A program made the position numbers and the translations under genes. 64,000 nucleotides of DNA, from the IMG/VR virus record IMGVR_UViG_3300048997_000353, positions 44,442 to 108,441 of that record; one strand, 5' to 3'. Below the pieces are notes generated by a model. The model had not been told where the DNA came from and did no database searches. It saw nothing but the letters and a program-made list of their open reading frames with translations. This document shows positions 4,012 through 39,480 of this stretch, piece by piece. How positions within the stretch are numbered: position 1 is the first letter of the stretch; the number at the start of each line of letters is the position of its first letter. The DNA is from a virus.

Positions 4012-4496
4012 TATTTTCCTACCCAGCCCGAAGAAGTAGATCCTCCGGATTCCTTGACATAGAGCGTAGTGCCAGCTCCTCCACTCAAATTCAGATAGAT
4101 CGATCCGACTGGTGCCGCCACCACGCCCGCGGGACTACCAATTCCGCTCATCGGGAGAATCGTGCCACCTTGAAAACTTGCACCAGGCCCCGAGCTGCTC
4201 ACGGTCACGCCAACGCTCACGCCCGCGCCGCCAGTCCACGTCGCAACCAAAATGAAATTGTCGTAGGTATCGCTGAGGGCAATGACCCGCTTGGCATTCG
4301 TCAGTCCCGCGTACGTGTCGAGGATCGCGACGTCGCCATTGTTCTTCACGCCCTGCACAACCAGGTTCACCGTGGCGGGCGCGCCCTTAATTACGTAATC
4401 GAATTCGATGGAGGTGCTGTTCTGCAGAGCGTTTGAAATGGTGACGAGCTTGCCGGATTCATCGACCGTGAACTGCTGCTGCTGAACTTGGCTCAT
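4011..4496 (-). CDS. Putative virion structural protein
   Basis: Beta-rich; GSPAGVVAAPVGSIYLN...LYVKESG...GW motif common in phage structural proteins; RBS CAGGAG. Confidence 0.6.
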   Translation of the reverse strand: MSQVQQQQFTVDESGKLVTISNALQNSTSIEFDYVIKGAPATVNLVVQGVKNNGDVAILDTYAGLTNAKRVIALSDTYDNFILVATWTGGAGVSVGVTVSSSGPGASFQGGTILPMSGIGSPAGVVAAPVGSIYLNLSGGAGTTLYVKESGGSTSSGWVGK

Positions 4497-4607
4497 GAAA
4501 TCTCCTGTGGTACTCTGCTGCGCACATCACGTAGCGGCATGTTCCCACTGGTCATGACACGACGCGACATGTCCGCACACGACGGGACGTTACGGAGCAG
4601 CAAAACT

Positions 4608-4650
4608 AAACCAAGACAATGGCGGGAGCGATTCGTAGTCGCTCCCGCCA
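4608..4650 (-). terminator. Intrinsic terminator after the major capsid gene
   Basis: Inverted repeat TGGCGGGAGCGA/TCGCTCCCGCCA (4620-4650) followed by T-rich sequence on the minus strand. Confidence 0.7.
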
Positions 4651-4661
4651 CCTTTGTTTCC

Positions 4662-6578
4662 TTAGCTTTGGACCGGACCGTACTTGGCTTCGGCCTTTTT
4701 CAAGATGCGGGAGAACAACGCTTTCACTCCGGCCTTGAGGAAGGAAGATTTCTCAACCACACGCGCAGCGCGTTCGCCGTATGTGCGATAGAGATCCATA
4801 ACCAACTTGGCAACTGGTCCCGACTTTTCGTAGTCGTTGACCAGCCAAGTGCGGCACTTGCTGACCCGAGGTCCGGTGAAGAAATTCTCATCGAACGCGA
4901 CTGCTGCCAGCCAGCACGGAGCCACAAAAGGACCGATTCCGGTTCTCACAGCAGTAATCCACGGCATGTAGTGAGCCAATACTTGGTGGATGTACGTGCC
5001 GAAGGTCCACTGCCGGGAAACCGTGGGCCACTCGATCGCGTAGTAATCCCGTTGAGTCAGGAACTGCCGCACGGCCGGGATCCGGCTATGCGGGTAGGGA
5101 TTGGTGTTGATGTCGTACACGATCGTGCCGGCGGGAAACATCGGATGGAGCCGGATGGGAATGACGGCGGAACCGGTGGGGCTGATGGAGTATTTGGATT
5201 TGTACCCCGTCACGGCGAAGCCGGCGGTCAAGCCGGAATCCTGGCCCGCTTTGTCGTACCCGAACACGAAGCTGTTGGTGCCCGTCGACGAGTAGATCAC
5301 TGCGGACTCGAGTGAGGCGCGGACGTCGGACGAAACCCAGATAGCATCGGGTTGGGCTTGGTAGTTATTCCACATGAAGGCGAGGTCGGCTTCGATTTCG
5401 GCGACTTGGCCATTGCCGGCGGGGGTCAAGCTTCCGCCGTTCATGTCGGTCCAGTTTCCGTTGAGGAAAGTGTAAGTACCGAGGCCATCGAAATCGGTGG
5501 TCTGGTAGCTGTTGTCAACGTTGAGGCCAGCGGCGGCACCGGTTTGTGTTCCTGCAGCGGCAGCGACGATGGTGTAGCTGGGCCATGCGGTGATGGCGCC
5601 GAGTTTCACGTTGGCGGCGGATGCGGATACGTTCACACCCCAGAACCAGGCATAGGCGACAGCGCCCTTCATGGCGGGGATGGAGACGTTAACTTTTTGT
5701 GCCGCTGCGTTTGTGGTCACGAGGGCGGCCACGTTGGAAATGGCGCTGCAGCCGCAGGCCACGTTCGTGGTTGTGCCGTCCGCGTTGGTCCGAACGTAAT
5801 TGGTGGTGAGACCGTTTACGACGGAAGGGGGAGCCGCATAGCCGGCCTGTCCGCCCGGGTTCATGCCCATGCCGGTGATGGCGACAACCGCCACAACGAC
5901 GTTGGCCGAAGTTCCGAGCGCGCCCGTTCCTGTTGCCAGGGCAGACGTCACGTTCGTGGCTTGACCGAGAGCGAAACCCAAGTTGCCGGCGTTGAGCGAA
6001 TTGGGACCGGAGTTGCCCCAGATCGTCATCATTTCCTCTTGGAGCCGGAGGCGCGCCAAGTTGCGGAAATGTTCGTCGGCCAGGTTATCGGTGTAGCCTT
6101 CCCCGGCAAACTGCGCCGTGAACGTTTCTCCACCGTCCATGCCCATTTCCTTGTAAGTCGCGAGGTAATCGACTTCGTTCGGCGTGGCGATGGCGTTGCG
6201 TTGCCCTTCGAGCAAACCGGAATAGACGAACGTGGAGTTCGGATTCCGCGTGGCCTTCCAGTGCGCCGAGGTGCCGACGCCGGCATTCACTTTTCCGGAC
6301 TTGCCGATCATCTGGATGAACGGCGTGAGCAACGGGAAAATGAAATAGGCGGGCCCGCGCAGATCGTAAAAATTGAAGCCGAGGGCGGTGGTGACGCCGG
6401 CCTTGATCAGCGCGCGGCCGGCACGCTTAACCAGCGGATGTTCGGGCGACCAGTCCTTGAGGGGGATGGCTCGTGCCTGCTTGCAAAGGTCGGCAATTTG
6501 CGGATCCGACATCGCCTTTGCCATCTGCCCGCGGCTCATCATGGTAGCGGCCGCGTACATTTCTTGCGGAACTTTCAT
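4662..6578 (-). CDS. Major capsid protein with an extra C-terminal ~80 aa Cys-initiated domain
   Basis: Position after protease and scaffold; FYDLRGPAYFIFPLLTP N-terminus; IPIRLHPMFPAGTI...RDYYAIEWP capsid-like C-terminal region; followed by a terminator. Confidence 0.8.
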   Translation of the reverse strand: MKVPQEMYAAATMMSRGQMAKAMSDPQIADLCKQARAIPLKDWSPEHPLVKRAGRALIKAGVTTALGFNFYDLRGPAYFIFPLLTPFIQMIGKSGKVNAGVGTSAHWKATRNPNSTFVYSGLLEGQRNAIATPNEVDYLATYKEMGMDGGETFTAQFAGEGYTDNLADEHFRNLARLRLQEEMMTIWGNSGPNSLNAGNLGFALGQATNVTSALATGTGALGTSANVVVAVVAITGMGMNPGGQAGYAAPPSVVNGLTTNYVRTNADGTTTNVACGCSAISNVAALVTTNAAAQKVNVSIPAMKGAVAYAWFWGVNVSASAANVKLGAITAWPSYTIVAAAAGTQTGAAAGLNVDNSYQTTDFDGLGTYTFLNGNWTDMNGGSLTPAGNGQVAEIEADLAFMWNNYQAQPDAIWVSSDVRASLESAVIYSSTGTNSFVFGYDKAGQDSGLTAGFAVTGYKSKYSISPTGSAVIPIRLHPMFPAGTIVYDINTNPYPHSRIPAVRQFLTQRDYYAIEWPTVSRQWTFGTYIHQVLAHYMPWITAVRTGIGPFVAPCWLAAVAFDENFFTGPRVSKCRTWLVNDYEKSGPVAKLVMDLYRTYGERAARVVEKSSFLKAGVKALFSRILKKAEAKYGPVQS

Positions 6579-20567: not shown

Positions 20568-20786
20568 TCATGTGGGCTCCTTTACGTCGGACTTGGGTTT
20601 CCCCTTCACGGCTTGCGGCCGCTCAATGAGATCGGCCAGGATGCCGATCGCTTCGAGGACGCGCAGTTGGCCGCGAACCATGTCGACCTGCAGATCCCGG
20701 TCATGCGTGCGCGGCATTGAGGAATTTTCCAACTTCGAGACTGTCTGCTGCTGTTGCTCGATCAGTTCTTGGATTGTTTCTGCCAT
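20568..20786 (-). CDS. Hypothetical protein immediately downstream of array A
   Basis: AAGGAG RBS before ATG 20786. Confidence 0.7.
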   Translation of the reverse strand: MAETIQELIEQQQQTVSKLENSSMPRTHDRDLQVDMVRGQLRVLEAIGILADLIERPQAVKGKPKSDVKEPT

Positions 20787-20815: not shown

Positions 20816-21558
20816 GCCGCTAGCTTCAGTCCTGGTTTCGTCGTGTAATATCTAGTGATGCCGCCTCGTGCAGTCACGTGAAGTGTGGTGATGCCGCTGC
20901 ATCCTGTTTTGCCTGACTCAGTTTCGCCGTTAGATGGTGCCGACCGGCTCCGCTTTGTCGTGCCGCTAAGTCGAGTCCGAAATTGTCTCGTCATGTCATG
21001 CCGCTACATTTCGTTTCGTCCGGTTTGCAAATTGCCGCCCCCGCGATGCTGCGTGATGCGATGTCCTGTCAAGCCGCTCGGTCTGGCGGTGCGAAGTGGA
21101 ATCGAGTAACGCCGCTCTGTCCGGTCAGGTATGGTTCAGTGGGGTAAAGCCGTTTCGTTAAGTTTTGTCCTGTCACGAAATGTCCTATCAGGCCGCTGTG
21201 TTCAGTTCTGTTCTGTGGTGTCGCATACGGCCGCTGCATCGAATTTTGTAAGATTTAATCTGGCGTTGCCGCTCCGTGGGATCCAGTAGTATCAAGTAAA
21301 GTCTGGTCAAGCCGCTGTGTATTTGTCATGTCACGTCCAGTCGGGCCGCTCGGTCAAGTTGTGCCGTGTGCGGTCTAGCCCGGCCGCTCCGTGGAGTTCA
21401 GTTTCGTTCAATTGCGTCCTGCCGCTACGTGACGTAAAGTTCGGTGAAGTGGTGCCGCTGAGTCACGCTTGGTGAAGCGGTGCCGCTCCGTGGTGTCATG
21501 CCGCGCCTGGTTGAGCAATGCCGCTATGTGGTGTGGCGTGATGTTAAGTGACGCCGCT
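20816..21558 (-). repeat. Pentamer-periodic array A: 21 anchors, 20 unique units
   Basis: GCCGCT-type anchors (+ strand) at 20816, 20860, 20893, 20926, 20962, 21000, 21034, 21073, 21111, 21149, 21192, 21230, 21268, 21311, 21345, 21383, 21421, 21454, 21482, 21520, 21553. Example unit: GCCGCT CT GTC CG GTC AG GTA TG GTT CA GTG GG GTA AA. Strand inferred from flanking genes. Confidence 0.95.
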
Positions 21559-21577
21559 CGGTTTTTGGAAAATGAAT

Positions 21578-21742
21578 GGGAACCGCTGAACATTGGAGTA
21601 ACAGTCCAACTCTTTGCGGTTCCCCTTGAAACGGCCACGGCTCCGAGGCTAATCGCGGGTTGATCGTAAGCAGTTACGATGCTTCGTATCCCTATCGCCG
21701 TCCTCCGCCTATAGCTCCACTTGGTCACTAGGGCCGTTTCAA
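21578..21742 (-). ncRNA. Structured leader upstream of array A
   Basis: Stems GGGAACCGC/GCGGTTCCC (21578-21624) and TTGAAACGGCC/GGCCGTTTCAA (21626-21742) enclosing ATCGTAA/TTACGAT. Confidence 0.55.
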
Positions 21743-21930
21743 TTACCAATCTTGGCGCGGACAAAGCAGTCTTTTGCCTCAAGCAGTTTGCGGAGTCCAG
21801 CCGATTTCTCAGGCCCATCAGGAAGTTGCGCGTCCATCGAGCAGGCGAGCGCGAATACATCTCCGCTCACGCCCCTTAGGTGCTCTGGTAAGTGTGCGAA
21901 GTCGAAATATTTCATAATCGGTGATGGCAC
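21739..21930 (-). CDS. Small helical-hairpin phage protein, 63 aa (possibly Acb2/Tad1-like)
   Basis: GGAGG RBS plus GTG 21930; KYFDFAHLP...LPDGPEKSAGLRKLLEAKDCFVRA. Confidence 0.75.
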   Translation of the reverse strand: MPSPIMKYFDFAHLPEHLRGVSGDVFALACSMDAQLPDGPEKSAGLRKLLEAKDCFVRAKIGN

Positions 21931-21998
21931 AGTGTTCCTCCATTTCGAGTTGCGATTATAAGGGGCCGGATTCGGCGCTCCGGCCTGCGCTTCGTGAT

Positions 21999-22814
21999 TT
22001 AAGCCGTCGCCGCCTTGGCTGTTTCCGCGCCGTTCGCCTTGGCTGGTGCCTCGATCACTGGCTTCTCCCGCTTCTTCTGCCGGTCGCCCATCTCGATCTC
22101 GGCTTCGTCGACCCGGAAGCGGCCGCGGCCCAGCGATCGGCAACTGCCCAAACCGCACATCATAATCATCGCAGTGACGTCGGTAAGATCAACCTCCTTC
22201 ACGTTGGTGGTCAAGAATCGGAAGTTGAACGAAAATCTCGAGCCCGACGCCACACACTCGGAATGCTGGTAAATGCTCTTGGGTCCCTTCGGCGTATTCA
22301 CCGAACCCATGAACGCACTCCAATAAGTTTTGGCCGGGCCTGTCATGTCCTCGTTCAGCATGTACACCTTGTCCGGGGAATCAGCGTCGAGCAAACTAAA
22401 TCCATCGGCCAAGACGCGCGCTGCTTCCGAGAAATCACCCTTCGTTCCCCGCAGATCGGAAAATATTTTGAGACGCGATGCGGCCTGCTTTATGCAGGCC
22501 TGCACCATCCAGTTGCCGATATACGCTCCGCGCTCCGTGCGCCGGAGAGCGTTGACTCCATACACTTGCTCGGGCTGCAATTCCCCGGTTTCGCTCGGAA
22601 GTTCCTCCTGCCCAACCTCTTCGTGAAGGATTCTCTGGACAGCCTTCTCGGCATCATCGCCGGTCAGTTCCAAATGATGCTCCACGAACGCGCGAACACC
22701 ACGTTCATCCGCTGGTTGCCCGCCCACAAACTCGGTTACGAAAGTGGCTTGCACTTTCACAACTCCCGTTAGTTTCTGGTAAATCGCTTCTAGGTCTTTT
22801 GCGTTGAATTTCAT
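21999..22814 (-). CDS. Stand-alone Cas7-like RAMP protein, 271 aa
   Basis: AAAGGAG RBS plus ATG 22814; N-terminal beta strand with FVGG; central YIGNWMVQACIKQAA (equivalent to the RAMP IPGSSLKG-helix); SECVASGSRFSFNF; C-terminal Gly-rich loop GLGSCRSLGRGRF. Confidence 0.8.
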   Translation of the reverse strand: MKFNAKDLEAIYQKLTGVVKVQATFVTEFVGGQPADERGVRAFVEHHLELTGDDAEKAVQRILHEEVGQEELPSETGELQPEQVYGVNALRRTERGAYIGNWMVQACIKQAASRLKIFSDLRGTKGDFSEAARVLADGFSLLDADSPDKVYMLNEDMTGPAKTYWSAFMGSVNTPKGPKSIYQHSECVASGSRFSFNFRFLTTNVKEVDLTDVTAMIMMCGLGSCRSLGRGRFRVDEAEIEMGDRQKKREKPVIEAPAKANGAETAKAATA

Positions 22815-22870
22815 TTTCTGTTCTCCTTTGTGATCTGCGAACGAATCGATCATTGCTCGCTAGATTTCGT

Positions 22871-23621
22871 GCCGAAAAGTTTCGTTTTGCCGCTATGTGG
22901 TGTCCAGTAGCGTGTGGTCATGCCAAGTACAGTAGCGCCGCTCTGTGCGGTCGAGTAACTGTCGAATTGGGTCCGGTCTTGTCGTGCCGCTCTGTGACGT
23001 ATAGTAAAGTCTTGTCTTGTCCCGCCGCTCTGAACGGTTGAATGGAGTTGGGTGCCGCCGCTGGGTCGCATCGTGTAATGTTCTGTCATGCTTCGCGACG
23101 CCGCTGGATACTGCGATGTCGAGTGTAGTCGAGCCGTTGCGTGGAATATGGTGAAGTGGCGTACTGCCGCAGTAGTGCCACGCGCTGTCCAATGCGGAAT
23201 TGCCGCTCGGTCGAGTCCGGTGCAGTAGGGTCTTGTGGTATGGAGCCGCTGCGTAGAATCGAGTCCTGTGACATCATGGGTTGCCGTTTTATTCTGCTCG
23301 GTTTGGTCGAAGTCAAGTTTGCCGCTCCGTCATGCCGCTCTGTCGTGTCGAGTTCAATGGTGTGCGGTCGTGTAAAGTCCTGCCGCTCCGTGCTGCCAGG
23401 TTGTGTCGTGTGAGATGGGGTATAGCCGCTCTGTTGCATAGAGTTATGTTGTGTCCAGCCGCTCAGTCTTGTCGTGTCTGGGCATGTGGAGTTTGGCCGC
23501 TGTGTAAAGCTCAGTTCGAGTGCGCTTTGCCGCCTGCGTGATGCCGTGCGCGATGGTGTAATGCCGCTGAATCGGGTGCCAACTTGTGAAGTGCTGTCAA
23601 ATGGCATCTTGTCGAGCCGCT
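22871..23621 (-). repeat. Pentamer-periodic array B: 20 anchors plus one degenerate, 19 units
   Basis: Anchors at 22889, 22937, 22986, 23024, 23057, 23100, 23133, 23166, 23202, 23245, 23283, 23321, 23334, 23382, 23425, 23458, 23496, 23529, 23563, 23616, and degenerate GCCGAA at 22871. Example: GCCGCT CT GTG AC GTA TA GTA AA GTC TT GTC TT GTC CC. Confidence 0.95.
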
Positions 23622-23624
23622 AGA

Positions 23625-23957
23625 TTATTTCTTTCCGGTTGGAGTTCCGCAGTTCGAACAGAACTTCGCACCTGCGATTTGCGTGTTACAGGTTCCGCAG
23701 ATCAAGTCCTCCGGTGCAGGCCCCGAAATGAGACGGATCTCCTTCTCGGGCCGCTTACCGCGGTTTAATCGTTGGTTTTGAATCATCAAATCGCCAATTT
23801 TGCAAAATATTTTGGCATTGCCTTGTTTGATGCGCGCGACAGCTTCCGTCATGGAGCCATCGTCGATCCCTTCTCCGATCTGGTTGACCAGGGCCACAAC
23901 ATCCCCTAGATTTTCAACCTTGATTGTCTTTCTTGCCGCCGGCGGTTGGTCGGTCAT
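23625..23957 (-). CDS. Protein with a C-terminal zinc ribbon, 110 aa, between arrays B and C
   Basis: AAAGGAG RBS; CGTC...AKFCSNCG. Confidence 0.8.
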   Translation of the reverse strand: MTDQPPAARKTIKVENLGDVVALVNQIGEGIDDGSMTEAVARIKQGNAKIFCKIGDLMIQNQRLNRGKRPEKEIRLISGPAPEDLICGTCNTQIAGAKFCSNCGTPTGKK

Positions 23958-24016
23958 CTTTTCTCCTTTAAGAGTTTAGTTCTCTCGCATTTTTGGGCTT
24001 CGTTTTGTTTTGTGTT

Positions 24017-24540
24017 GCCGCTTTATCGAGTAGAGTCACGTACAGTGCTGTCGAGTAACGCCGCTGTGTCGCGTACCGTCGAGTCAGGTGACGGCCAGTA
24101 GCGCCGCTGAGTAAAGTCGAGTCGGATCGGGTCCCGTATTGCCGTTCCGTAAGGTCACGTTGGGTTGAGCCGCTGGGTAAAGTCCAGTCTTATCCCGTCG
24201 AGTCGCGGAGAATACTGCCGGGTCATGTGGCGCCGCTGCGTTGTGTAAGGTCAAGGATTGTCGGGTCGAGTGGGGAAAGGCCGCTCGGTGGTATAAAGTT
24301 GCGTGCAGTCGGAGCATGCCGCTGCGCAGAGCTGTGTGAGGGAATGTGGCAAATTGCCGTTCGGTGTGGATAGGTTTCGTCATGTCATGCCGCATTATCA
24401 AGTGGAGTCTGGTGGGATCGGGCCGCTTGTCTTGTTGAGTGCGGTGTCGGAGGGTCATGCCGCTATATTGAATTGGGTCGGGTCGGAGCATGGAAAGTGG
24501 GGCCGCTACGACTTGTGACGTTCTGGTTGGTATCGCCGCT
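24017..24540 (-). repeat. Pentamer-periodic array C: 14 anchors, 13 units, with partial units at both ends
   Basis: Anchors at 24017, 24060, 24103, 24141, 24169, 24232, 24280, 24318, 24356, 24389, 24422, 24459, 24502, 24535. Example: GCCGCT TT ATC GA GTA GA GTC AC GTA CA GTG CT GTC GA GTA AC. Confidence 0.95.
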
Positions 24541-24561
24541 TGGTAAAGGTTATGTGTTGAC

Positions 24562-24730
24562 TGACCTGTTACAAGGACACCCGCAAGGATTGGCGTGTGC
24601 CGACGCCTACGTTTTATGCCCCACTCCTGCGTTAATTCGCGACCTTGGCTAGTGTCAGTCGCTCTTACGAGCGGGTTTTCCCCAGCGGCAACCTGTGGAG
24701 CCTCCCTGTGGGTGCCCATGTAACAGGTCA
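24562..24730 (-). ncRNA. Multibranched structured RNA leader upstream of array C
   Basis: Perfect 12-bp closing stem TGACCTGTTACA/TGTAACAGGTCA, a further ~15-bp stem with G-U pairs on the minus strand, and internal hairpins such as CGCTC-GTAA-GAGCG. Confidence 0.65.
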
Positions 24731-24739
24731 ATCGTGTGT

Positions 24740-24880
24740 TCATATTTTCTTCTTCTTGGCTGCTGACTTAACAATGGACTCCAGGGTTTCGTACTGCCGC
24801 TTGCCCGCCATGGCGGCGAGAATCCGCAACAGCCGAAGCGTTTCTGGTGTGACTTTGGTGCTTACCAGAGGTTCCCGCAT
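24740..24880 (-). CDS. Ribbon-helix-helix-like regulator, 46 aa
   Basis: Below the ORF-track cutoff; MREPLVSTKVTPETLRLLRILAAMAGKRQYETLESIVKSAAKKKKI; AAGGAA RBS. Confidence 0.65.
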   Translation of the reverse strand: MREPLVSTKVTPETLRLLRILAAMAGKRQYETLESIVKSAAKKKKI

Positions 24881-25066
24881 TTATTTCCTTGGCGCGCGTG
24901 CCAAACCAATTTTGCGCTGGAGTGAACTAATATGAGATTGCGAGCAATCTAGAACGCTTGCAATCTCGGCCTGGGTAAATCCTTTGCGGCACAGTTCCCG
25001 CACTCGCTTATGAGTCACTGCAACCCTCCTGAGTTGTTCACTGTGGCTGTAGTAGGTTTTCCACAT
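24881..25066 (-). CDS. HTH DNA-binding protein
   Basis: KGFTQAEIASVLDCSQSHISSL; GGAG RBS. Confidence 0.75.
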   Translation of the reverse strand: MWKTYYSHSEQLRRVAVTHKRVRELCRKGFTQAEIASVLDCSQSHISSLQRKIGLARAPRK

Positions 25067-25133
25067 CTCCAAAATAACTAAGAGATTGTGCTGTAACCTT
25101 GTCACTTTTCGTTCGAGGGTCATGGAGGCAAGT

Positions 25134-25172
25134 GTTATACGCCTAGACGTAAAAAGAGTCAAATGCTATTAT
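25134..25172. promoter_or_regulatory. Overlapping divergent sigma70 promoters; the leftward one faces the RAMP/array locus
   Basis: Minus strand: TTGACT(25162-25157)-17-TATAAC(25139-25134). Plus strand: TAGACG(25144)-17-TATTAT(25167). Confidence 0.7.
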
Positions 25173-39039: not shown

Positions 39040-39480
39040 GACTTAAGCCGGACGCCAGCAGGGACCGGAACAGGGGTTCAACGCATTAGATTCCAGAGCA
39101 AAGTTAGGATGTGGCCTTGAGCCGATGATTCCTACTAACTTCCGCGATGTGGCCCCGCGCCGAATTCGGGATGGTCCTCTGGAGTTGATTAGGTTCCTAC
39201 AGAATAGCTCTATGGTTTGTTGTCCTATCGCTGACCATAGTGAAGGAAAGCCAATTCCTCTACCTGTACACAATCCACGGACGAAAGAAGATGCCTAAGT
39301 CAGATGAAGCGCAATCGGATAGCGCGGAATTATCCGTCCGACGCGTAGAACGGTAAGTCTACGCCACAACAGATTTTGCAGATGGACTCCGGTCAGGACC
39401 GCCGAGAAAGCGGAACCCGCAGGCTACACGCTAGGCAAACCGGAGTTAATGCACACGGTCCGTCCAAAGTCGGACCAAAT
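39040..39480 (+). ncRNA. Candidate large structured RNA, about 440 nt
   Basis: No convincing ORF; stems AAGTTAG/CTAACTT, CTATGGT/ACCATAG, CGGATA/TATCCG, GCGTAGA/TCTACGC, ACTCCGG/CCGGAGT, GGTCCG/CGGACC. Confidence 0.45.

What the first reader, a model, noticed from the sequence alone, without database searches (positions are those of the whole stretch)
20816..25172. Candidate RNA-guided system: a lone Cas7-like RAMP among three 5-nt-periodic, anchor-delimited arrays
Seen: three arrays (20816-21558, 22889-23621, 24017-24540) contain 55 GCCGCT-type anchors. Between anchors the sequence is unique, yet GT (sometimes AT or GC) recurs every 5 nt as NN-GTN-NN-GTN. On the gene strand this reads AGCGGC-NN-(NAC-NN)n. 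The arrays flank a single 271-aa RAMP with a Gly-rich loop. No cas1/2/3/5/6/8/10 or palindromic CRISPR repeat is visible in the window. Known: Cas7 RAMPs polymerise along guide RNA with a fixed nucleotide step (6 nt in Cascade). Inference: each anchor-to-anchor unit is a guide RNA coated by one RAMP per pentamer, with constant bases bound by protein and variable bases read as a gapped target code, giving about 52 guides. With no linked nuclease, binding or silencing of competing phages or host genes is the likely output. From memory, unverified, phage RAMP systems with alternating GGY/NN guides (VIPR) have been reported recently; this locus would be a variant with a different constant motif and a hexamer anchor.
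Basis: partly seen in the sequence, partly recalled or inferred. Interest (0 to 1): 0.97.

Follow-up and report, generated by a model that had tools for sequence, protein, structure and literature searches.

The report
Divergent phage VIPR guide-RNA system
A soil phage carries a VIPR system, a CRISPR-like kind first described in 2026: one small RNA-binding protein flanked by about 55 short guide units written in five-letter steps, here with a different fixed triplet and a six-letter punctuation mark, so it is real and tidy but not a new kind of system.

Summary
Three arrays (window 20816-21558, 22871-23621, 24017-24540) hold 58 AGCGGC-type anchors and 55 units. Of these, 45 have lengths of 5n+3 (binomial p 1e-22). 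They are the only strongly 5-periodic DNA in the 108-kb phage record.

On the gene (-) strand each unit reads AGC, GGC-NN, then (g-A-Y-NN)n. The Y position is never a purine (0 of 231 pentamers).

The 271-aa protein has no Pfam or PDB match. Its broadened family profile matches the Escherichia phage SUSP1 Vipr family (hhalign 94.8%, E 4.9e-8). Relatives carry the same arrays on the gene strand in 9 of 10 loci examined.

This is a VIPR system (bioRxiv 10.64898/2026.04.26.720920). It belongs to a divergent, almost wholly metagenomic clade that uses gAY instead of GGY. It has no structured tail. A 3-nt phase-shifting mark (NGC before G-R-C) separates the units.

A later preprint (10.64898/2026.10.21.760802) already lists GAC/NN VIPR-like arrays, and this scan has met VIPR-like loci on other DNA.

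I found no targets: gapped-pattern hits occur at roughly chance rate. Guide function is inferred, not shown.

The parts
24881..25162 (-). 93-aa helix-turn-helix protein at the head of the minus-strand gene block (context, possible regulator)
   Evidence: Pfam Sigma70_r4 E 4.2e-5, below the curated cut-off. PHROG transcriptional regulator E 1.2e-6.
24740..24880 (-). 46-aa small ORF; no family assigned
   Evidence: ORF seen. No Pfam hit and no PHROG hit.
24541..24745 (-). about 200-nt strongly structured leader directly upstream of array 3 on the gene strand
   Evidence: Minus-strand RNA fold -90.5 kcal/mol, z -6.9. Plus strand -80.1 kcal/mol, z -3.6. No Rfam match at E<=1. Not found in the relatives' DNA held.
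24017..24540 (-). array 3: 14-15 anchor-delimited units of g-A-Y-NN pentamers
23625..23957 (-). 110-aa protein with a C-terminal zinc ribbon. Its N-terminal helical part weakly resembles the small gene that precedes the array in 4 relatives; candidate accessory gene.
   Evidence: Zinc-ribbon Pfam hits, E 0.003-0.02, all below cut-off. Alignment A4 with the L001, L002, L003 and L006 upstream proteins shows 10-25% identity. No likeness to SUSP1 Vap1 (hhalign 0.2%).
22871..23621 (-). array 2: about 22 units. It starts 3 nt after the stop codon of the zinc-ribbon gene and ends 75 nt before the vipr-like start codon.
21999..22814 (-). vipr-like gene, 271 aa (alternative start at 22853 gives 284 aa). 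Stand-alone RAMP with G-loop GLGSCRSLGRGRF.
21739..21930 (-). 63-aa ORF of a widespread phage family of unknown function
   Evidence: phrog_1761 E 2e-28
21559..21740 (-). structured spacer upstream of array 1
   Evidence: Fold -64.4 kcal/mol, z -3.1. No similarity to the other leader.
20816..21558 (-). array 1: about 23 units, followed within about 30 nt by the ribosome-binding site and start of the next minus-strand ORF (20568-20786)

Best explanation
This is a VIPR (Viral Interference Programmable Repeat) system of a 108-kb uncultured soil phage.

The whole block from 25162 to 20568 is read on the minus strand. Its order is: regulator genes, structured leader, array 3, zinc-ribbon gene, array 2, vipr-like gene, small ORF, array 1.

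The array transcripts carry about 55 guide units. Each unit is AGC, then GGC-NN, then 5-9 pentamers g-A-Y-NN.

By homology with SUSP1 Vipr, one protein copy binds each pentamer. It buries the constant triplet, with the strict pyrimidine in a purine-excluding pocket. It presents the two variable bases, which together read 12-20 bases of a double-stranded DNA target, skipping bases in between.

With no nuclease in the locus, the likely output is transcriptional silencing of rival phages or other mobile elements.

Two things differ from the characterised type. First, the constant triplet is gAY, not GGY. In the hhalign pairing, different residues stand at the SUSP1 positions that hold G1 and G2: G-loop D177 and W178 become Ser and a small residue, and thumb R138 aligns with an invariant Glu. 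R179, which holds Y3, is kept. Second, guides have no structured 3' tail. They are separated by a 3-nt register break (NGC in front of a G-R-C triplet), which I infer marks filament ends or cutting sites.

Shown here: the array anatomy, its conservation next to the gene family, and the protein homology. Inferred: transcription strand, RNA binding, unit separation, the gapped code and silencing.
For: Homology: profile A5 (63 family members) against profile A2 (38 SUSP1-type Viprs) gives hhalign 94.8%, E 4.9e-8, 136 columns. The match covers helix-1 through the G-loop. The narrower profile A1 gave 39%, E 3e-4. P0262, P0258 and P0252 hit both profiles.

The SUSP1 locus, read directly, has GGT-NN repeats on the gene strand on both sides of vipr.

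Co-occurrence: the window plus L001-L007 and L010 carry such arrays on the gene strand next to the gene. L008 (27% identity, partial match) does not. In 5 whole virus records the array pattern occurs 21 times forward, 0 reverse and 0 in the backwards control, and only at the arrays.

Motif, per-locus logos on the gene strand: position 2 is A 56-86% with G second in 7 of 8 loci; position 3 is a pyrimidine with 0% purine in 6 of 8 loci; positions 4-5 are variable. This matches the purine-excluding Y3 pocket of the cryo-EM preprint.

Strand: arrays begin at or within 3 nt of the upstream gene's stop codon. They end 24-75 nt before the vipr start, and array 1 runs into the next gene's ribosome-binding site. 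The leader folds 10 kcal/mol better as minus-strand RNA.

Not coding: anchors fall in all three frames (21/20/14).

Generality: a branch only about 25% identical (L033-L036) has x-A-C-NN pentamers, TGCGAC anchors and again 5n+3 units. In L036, 35 of 38 units fit (p 1.5e-21).

Phage context: portal, terminase and ParB genes; the record is a virus record.
Against: Single-sequence and narrow-profile searches give nothing significant. Best PDB hits are Csm4 E 0.4 and Csm3 E 0.87. Pfam finds no RAMP family in any of 26 members. hhalign against the single SUSP1 protein gives 3.9%.

No target found. In 487 kb of own and related phage DNA, real guides do no better than order-permuted guides at skip 0, 1 or 2. 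Two 18-base gapped patterns gave 1 hit each in IMG/VR against 0 for one reversed control. One of them gave 7 hits in metagenomes, which is about what chance allows by my rough estimate.

In SUSP1, GGY>GAY was among the substitutions tested (fig. S12 legend), and the Results text read says perturbing the GGY motifs abolished silencing. This clade must therefore read its triplet differently, and the residue pairings I give rest on a low-identity alignment.

The constant triplet G-A-C is its own near reverse complement, so the motif alone does not fix the strand.
Confidence: 0.85

Rival explanations
1. The same VIPR-type system, but the units are not separate guides. Each array would act as one long RNA, with the NGC mark only resetting the register so that a string of short protein filaments forms on an uncut transcript.
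For: No ribozyme, tail or known processing signal lies between units (Rfam). No nuclease gene is in the locus. Arrays lie inside a polycistronic block, between genes that must still be translated.
Against: The VIPR preprint's fig. S18 legend describes processed vrRNAs that abut in 'staggered' arrays. The 5n+3 unit rule with a narrow length range (28-53 nt) looks like a selected guide length.
Confidence: 0.2
2. The guides are made from the plus strand, antisense to the genes. They would read R-U-y-NN, equivalent to the YNNNG repeat class named in the VIPR preprint's methods.
For: G-A-C and G-T-C are reverse complements, so the same DNA gives a G-rich, GGY-like motif on the plus strand (GT at 82% and 85%). 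The preprint lists YNNNG repeats among its alternatives. The sigma-70 scan found no minus-strand promoter, but it is uninformative for an unknown host.
Against: The invariable position would then be a strict purine at position 1, with a loose position 3. That is the opposite of the Vipr pocket logic. Arrays are wedged between minus-strand genes with no room for their own promoters or terminators. SUSP1 vrRNAs are co-oriented with vipr. The leader folds better on the minus strand.
Confidence: 0.07
3. The arrays act as DNA, for example as binding-site arrays for a DNA-binding protein or as a recombination substrate, and the neighbouring RAMP is unrelated to them.
For: The period of 5 bp is half a helical turn. 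A ParB-like gene is in the window. Duplicated units in L003 and L005 show unit-level recombination.
Against: The association with the Vipr-like gene holds across about 25% protein identity, with the same strand and the same 5n+3 rule. The protein is homologous to an RNA-binding Vipr.
Confidence: 0.03
4. The arrays are translated: long minus-strand ORFs of 173 and 219 aa run through arrays 2 and 3.
For: The ORFs 23086-23607 and 24084-24743 exist.
Against: The period is 5, not 3. Anchors fall in all three frames (21/20/14). The open frames follow from the T-poor strand composition. Unit contents are unrelated to one another (25% identity).
Confidence: 0.01

Closest known systems
Type II VIPR of Escherichia phage SUSP1 (Vipr, vap1, four vrRNAs). 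Sources: bioRxiv 10.64898/2026.04.26.720920 (Results, methods sections 18 and 20 and figure-legend passages read) and 10.64898/2026.04.26.720927 (sections 5 and 6 read). The locus was read directly in KT454805.
   Same: It is phage-encoded and built on a stand-alone RAMP homologous at profile level. Pentamer arrays of a constant triplet plus variable NN lie on the gene strand on both sides of the gene. The third constant base is a strict pyrimidine. There are no cas genes, CRISPR repeats or nuclease.
   Different: The triplet is gAY, not GGY. The protein is 271 aa against 195 aa, with an unaligned N-terminal 80 residues. The G-loop is G-S-x-R instead of G-D-W-R. There is no roughly 40-nt pseudoknot tail. 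Guides have 6-10 NN units instead of 9-16. There are about 55 guides instead of 4. Units are separated by an AGCGGC mark that shifts the register by 3 nt. The accessory gene is not related to vap1.
'Staggered' vrRNA arrays and alternative repeat classes (NNNGG, YNNNG, NNNNG) of the same preprint (fig. S18 legend and methods section 20)
   Same: Guides abut one another with no spacer or tail, so the end of one marks the start of the next. The constant motif departs from GGY.
   Different: The figure and supplementary data could not be seen, so I cannot tell whether those arrays use an anchor word or a 5n+3 rule. None of the listed repeat classes has A at the position where all of them keep G. 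The accessible text contains no 'hexamer', 'delimit' or 'punctuat'.
Non-canonical VIPR-like clusters found by a genomic language model (bioRxiv 10.64898/2026.10.21.760802; passages of section 2.3, the fig. S10 legend and section 4.22 read)
   Same: The preprint reports 21 period-5 clusters with triplets such as GAC/NN or CAC/NN next to a Vipr-like fold, in genomes and metagenomes. This locus very likely belongs to that set.
   Different: In the text I could read, that work gives motifs and folds only. It does not give the anchor, the unit-length rule, the residue changes or any mechanism. Membership of this protein family in those clusters could not be checked.
Class 1 CRISPR-Cas backbones (Cas7, Csm3, Csm4)
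   Same: The RAMP G-loop motif is shared. The only weak PDB hits are Csm4 (E 0.4) and Csm3 (E 0.87) at the G-loop. Per the papers, the protein polymerises along a guide with a fixed step.
   Different: The step is 5 nt, not 6. There is no repeat-spacer array and no cas1 or other cas genes. Pairing is gapped rather than contiguous, by homology.

Membership tests
VIPR | Stand-alone Vipr protein: a RAMP homologous to described Viprs | tested here: met
   hhalign A5 against the SUSP1-family profile A2: 94.8%, E 4.9e-8, 136 columns. Bridging proteins hit both profiles. This is sequence-profile evidence only.
VIPR | RRM core, G-loop and thumb seen in a structure or a model | not testable with these tools
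The G-loop motif GLGSxRSxxxGKF is visible in the alignment. The Atlas held no model.
VIPR | Tandem 5-nt repeats of constant triplet plus variable NN, next to vipr and on its strand | tested here: met
   conserved in 9 of 10 related loci
VIPR | Constant triplet GGY | tested here: not met
   The triplet is g-A-Y: A 83% at position 2 in the window and 56-86% across 8 loci. The preprints allow 'a related consensus' and list GAC/NN.
VIPR | Third constant base restricted to pyrimidine (purine-excluding pocket) | tested here: met
   0 purines in 231 pentamers in the window, and 0% in 6 of 8 loci
VIPR | Structured invariant 3' tail after the repeat tract (type II) | tested here: not met
   Units abut, separated only by AGCGGC. 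No conserved tail is present. Other published types also lack it, by the fig. S18 and S19 legends.
VIPR | Minimal locus outside CRISPR context, mostly viral | tested here: met
   The record is a virus record with portal and terminase genes. No Cas1, Pfam RAMP or CRISPR repeat family was found.
VIPR | vap accessory gene | tested here: inconclusive
   A small helical protein precedes the array in 5 of 10 loci, with weak similarity (A4). It is not related to SUSP1 Vap1.
VIPR | vrRNAs expressed and bound by Vipr | not testable with these tools
   Needs small-RNA sequencing and a pull-down.
VIPR | Targets matched by NN with a 1-nt skip | tested here: inconclusive
   No enrichment over permuted guides in 487 kb. 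Collection hits occur at roughly chance rate.
CRISPR-Cas class 1 | Repeat-spacer array plus cas1/cas2 and further cas genes | tested here: not met

The most novel reading that the evidence does not exclude
A large, almost wholly metagenomic Vipr clade has rewritten both halves of the system. The clade has 449 clusters at 50% identity and a G-loop G-S-x-R.

First, the protein's grip on the constant triplet has changed: G-G-Y has become x-A-Y. The changed residues are those that hold G1 and G2 in SUSP1. This would be a natural experiment showing how the handle code can be re-engineered.

Second, guide biogenesis has changed. A 3-nt register-breaking mark (NGC before G-R-C; unit length always 5n+3) replaces tails and ribozymes. 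One transcript can then carry dozens of short guides whose ends are set by the filament itself or by a cut at the break.

I found no statement of the 5n+3 rule or the anchor in the accessible text of the four preprints. Their supplements were closed.
Probability: 0.3. Interest if true: 0.6.

Novelty: new variant of a known kind. Interest (0 to 1): 0.45.

Why it matters
VIPR is a months-old class of RNA-guided DNA binders whose rules rest on one characterised type.

This locus and its clade show the same design working with a different constant triplet and different contact residues. It has much shorter guides, 12-20 read bases. Its tail-less, punctuated arrays pack about 55 guides into 2 kb.

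If confirmed, the pairing of G-loop and thumb residues with the triplet gives a direct handle for engineering orthogonal Vipr and guide sets. The 3-nt punctuation gives a simple way to multiplex guides.

For phage biology, 55 unique guides in one phage implies a broad list of rivals or host genes being silenced.

It does not change the picture of what VIPR is.

Tried and rejected

Direct sequence searches led nowhere:
- phmmer and hmmsearch against PDB gave only E 0.4-0.9 hits.
- Pfam and PHROGs found nothing for the protein.
- tblastn against 50,697 phage records gave only chance hits at E >= 0.3.
- The ESM Atlas returned only unnamed viral clusters; the best RAMP cluster scored 0.76, which is a lead only.

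Targets, local: all in-phase guides of 8 loci were run against local DNA at skips 0-3, and showed no excess over shuffles. That was 132 guides and 116.
- One search showed an apparent excess: 20 of 116 against 39 of 580. It vanished when the control kept the dinucleotides and permuted only their order. It was therefore a composition effect, and I reject it.

Targets, collections: the gapped 18-base pattern of the longest guide hit L026. That site lies in a phrog_26752 gene, the skip base falls on the wobble position, and 19 of 20 bases match.
- The second guide hit a PAPS-reductase-like gene with the skip base at codon position 1.
- The reversed control gave 0 hits.
- In metagenomes the first pattern gave 7 hits. 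One is the L026 contig again. Two are homologous small proteins that match 20 of 20 in wobble phase (L040, L045). The others lie in short frames.
- My rough size estimates are not tool results. They put chance at about 1 hit per viral scan and about 10 for the metagenome scan. I therefore do not claim any target.

Codon-phase test: the window's NN composition correlates with antisense codon positions 1-2 (r 0.78), but equally with sense positions 2-3 (r 0.76). In relatives it correlates with nothing in particular. Register-avoidance constraints could produce this, so I reject it as evidence.

Leaders: the two structured regions are unrelated to each other. They are absent from the relatives held and unknown to Rfam.

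Promoter and terminator scan: at shuffle level.

Literature: the claim that the anchor or 5n+3 rule is not in print rests only on word searches within two preprints (and the passages) and on two library searches. Supplementary figures and tables were not visible and may show it.

Full report
WHAT IS THERE. The window lies in a single 108,441-bp virus record, estimated 71% complete. It has portal, large terminase and ParB-like genes. All genes between 25162 and 20568 are on the minus strand.

Three non-coding stretches interrupt these genes: 20816-21558, 22871-23621 and 24017-24540. On the plus strand they read GCCGC(T) followed by pentamers NNN-R-T and three more bases.

I counted 44 exact GCCGCT in the arrays out of 73 in the window. 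The reverse word never occurs there. With one-mismatch variants there are 58 anchors and 55 units. Of these, 45 have a length of 3 mod 5, mostly 33, 38, 43 or 48 nt (p 1.2e-22).

In 231 in-phase pentamers the fourth base is G 82% / A 18% and never a pyrimidine. The fifth is T 85%.

A sliding lag-5 statistic over the whole record has sd 0.042 and reaches 0.255 only in these arrays. The single exception above 0.12 is a weak 0.13 signal at window 4410-4510.

Variable positions of different units are 25% identical, which is unrelated. The anchors fall in all three reading frames, so the long open frames through arrays 2 and 3 are composition artefacts.

READING THE UNIT. On the gene strand a unit is AGC, then GGC-NN, then (g-A-Y-NN) repeated 5-9 times. 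The anchor is thus an extra constant-like triplet (AGC) with no NN, placed before a canonical GGC-NN pentamer. That is why unit lengths are 5n+3.

Position 3 is C 82% / T 18% with no purine. Position 2 is A 83%. Position 1 is only weakly G, at 38%.

THE PROTEIN. The gene at 21999-22814 encodes 271 aa, identical to database cluster P0001. An AAGGAG-type ribosome-binding site precedes the start.
- It has no Pfam or PHROG family.
- It has no significant PDB relative. The only hits are to the G-loops of Csm4 (E 0.4) and Csm3 (E 0.87).
- A word-indexed search found 28 relatives. All come from metagenome-derived sources (Logan, ENA, JGI; one marked 'src'), and none carries an NCBI source label.
- An exhaustive profile search found 449 clusters at E<=1e-3 and 102 at E<=1e-30.
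- One scan of 185,579 species genomes found a single relative, on a 5.4-kb contig of a Rhodospirillales MAG.
- None was found in 50,697 deposited phage genomes.

LINK TO VIPR. The library holds the preprints that define VIPR. I read the Results and methods sections 18 and 20 of 10.64898/2026.04.26.720920, plus legend passages. I read sections 5 and 6 of the cryo-EM companion 10.64898/2026.04.26.720927.

I fetched phage SUSP1 (KT454805) and read its locus. A 195-aa gene and a 146-aa gene are flanked by GGT-NN repeats on the gene strand, each tract followed by a tail.

The hhalign results were as follows:
- My first alignment against the single SUSP1 protein gave only 3.9%, but it aligned the G-loops.
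- Against a 38-member SUSP1-family profile it gave 39%, E 3e-4.
- After broadening my family to 63 members it gave 94.8%, E 4.9e-8 over 136 columns, from helix-1 to the C-terminal G-loop.

Three distant members (P0262, P0258, P0252) hit both profiles. I take homology to Vipr as established at sequence-profile level.

CO-OCCURRENCE. Eight IMG/VR loci encode relatives.
- Six show a period-5 signal beside the gene.
- L006 has a more degenerate array. L008 (27% identity, partial match) has none.
- The MAG contig L010 has a short array just upstream of the gene.
- In all of them the anchor reads (A)GCGGC on the gene strand, and the logo is g-A-Y-NN with a strict pyrimidine.
- In five whole records the array pattern occurs 21 times, always forward and always at these arrays, with none in the backwards control. 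One of the five records had no exact match.

A branch of the family only about 25% identical to the window protein (L033-L036) carries arrays downstream of the gene. These have x-A-C-NN pentamers and a different anchor, TGCGAC, and again follow the 5n+3 rule. In L036, 35 of 38 units fit (p 1.5e-21).

The register-breaking mark is therefore a property of the whole clade and not a quirk of this phage. The clade-wide G-loop is G-L-G-S-x-R-S.

WHICH STRAND. GAC is nearly its own reverse complement, so the motif alone is ambiguous. On the plus strand the arrays read R-U-y-NN, or YNNNG. Four observations favour the gene strand:
- The invariable feature is a pyrimidine at triplet position 3. That is what the SUSP1 structure explains by a purine-excluding pocket.
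- Arrays start at or within 3 nt of the upstream stop codon. They end 24-75 nt before the vipr start codon, and array 1 runs into the next gene's ribosome-binding site. This leaves no room for separate promoters or terminators.
- SUSP1 guides are co-oriented with vipr.
- The 205-nt leader before array 3 folds to -90.5 kcal/mol (z -6.9) as minus-strand RNA, against -80.1 (z -3.6) for the plus strand.

The consensus promoter scan was at shuffle level and says nothing.

HOW IT PROBABLY WORKS. By homology, one protomer binds each pentamer. Two neighbouring protomers bury the triplet, and the NN pairs are presented to read double-stranded DNA discontinuously. There is no nuclease gene in the block, so silencing is the likely output.

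In the hhalign pairing, SUSP1 D177 and W178 (contacts of G1 and G2) correspond to S224 and a small residue. R179 (the Y3 contact) corresponds to a conserved Arg. Thumb R138 (a salt bridge to G2) corresponds to E186, invariant in alignment A1.

This fits a change of the middle base from G to A with the pyrimidine kept. It rests on a low-identity alignment and is inference.

What the NGC mark does is unknown. My preferred reading is that the missing NN breaks the filament register and defines guide ends, with or without cleavage.

TARGETS. None was found; details are under Tried and rejected. In short, the local searches were negative against a proper control. One apparent excess was a composition artefact. 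Exact gapped-pattern scans gave 1, 1 and 0 (control) hits in IMG/VR and 7 in metagenomes.

One hit is a 20-of-20 wobble-phase match, found in two homologous small proteins (L040, L045). Such numbers are within what I estimate chance allows.

WHAT IS KNOWN. The class, its skip rule and seven types are in print. The methods name NNNGG, YNNNG and NNNNG alternatives and 'staggered' arrays.

A later preprint, 10.64898/2026.10.21.760802, reports 21 non-canonical period-5 clusters, including GAC/NN and CAC/NN, beside Vipr-like folds (passages and section 4.22 read). The motif variant is therefore already listed.

I read only passages of 10.64898/2026.10.15.759431. It shows solo vrRNAs on satellites. 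The orphan array on L030 may be of that kind.

I found no mention of an anchor word or of a 5n+3 rule in the accessible text. The supplementary figures that might show them were closed. This scan has also noted VIPR-like loci on other DNA: 617 notes in at least 414 genomes hold all six search words (VIPR, vrRNA, pentamer, RAMP, array, phage), and all eight shown describe VIPR-like loci.

VERDICT. This is a real VIPR system. It is a divergent variant in its gAY triplet, changed contact residues, tail-less punctuated arrays and about 55 short guides. It is well supported by anatomy, conservation and profile homology. Function and targets are not shown. Interest is moderate.

Noticed in passing
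window 39377-39474 (+): A Twister-P5 ribozyme match just above the Rfam gathering score (39.5 against 37.6 bits, E 1e-4).
   Followed up: no
window 24541-24745 (-): A very stable 205-nt structure with a closing stem of about 15 bp heads array 3 (z -6.9). It contains one GCCGCU, the complement of the anchor, in a hairpin; a 6-mer match like this is expected by chance about 5% of the time. It is not in Rfam and not in the relatives held.
   Followed up: partly
L030 3538-3713 (-): A short array of AGCGGC and g-A-Y-NN units on an 11.3-kb viral contig with no detectable Vipr-like gene (tblastn E<=1e-3). It is possibly a 'solo' guide array like those described on SUSP1 satellites.
   Followed up: partly
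L003 2600-2760 and L005 4100-4260, 4760-4900: Neighbouring units are near-duplicates that differ at a few variable bases. This suggests that new guides arise by unit duplication and point change.
   Followed up: no
L033 about 4975-5050 and L034 about 4975-5050: A conserved element of about 75 nt with a GC-rich hairpin sits between two stretches of pentamer units in two distant-clade loci. It has no Rfam match at E<=0.1.
   Followed up: partly
L045 755-2522 and L040 328-1617: Tandem small paralogous genes of unknown family on short metagenome contigs. One paralogue in each contig matches the longest window guide 20 of 20 in wobble phase (peptide EGPLKLKAFE). Chance is not excluded.
   Followed up: partly
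window 4410-4710: A weak lag-5 signal (0.13) in two 200-nt scan windows starting at 4410 and 4510, partly overlapping coding frames. It is the only one outside the arrays.
   Followed up: no
L007 4721-5070 (+): A related phage (provirus record) carries a full tmRNA gene (108.7 bits) and a tRNA about 2 kb from its VIPR-like locus.
   Followed up: no
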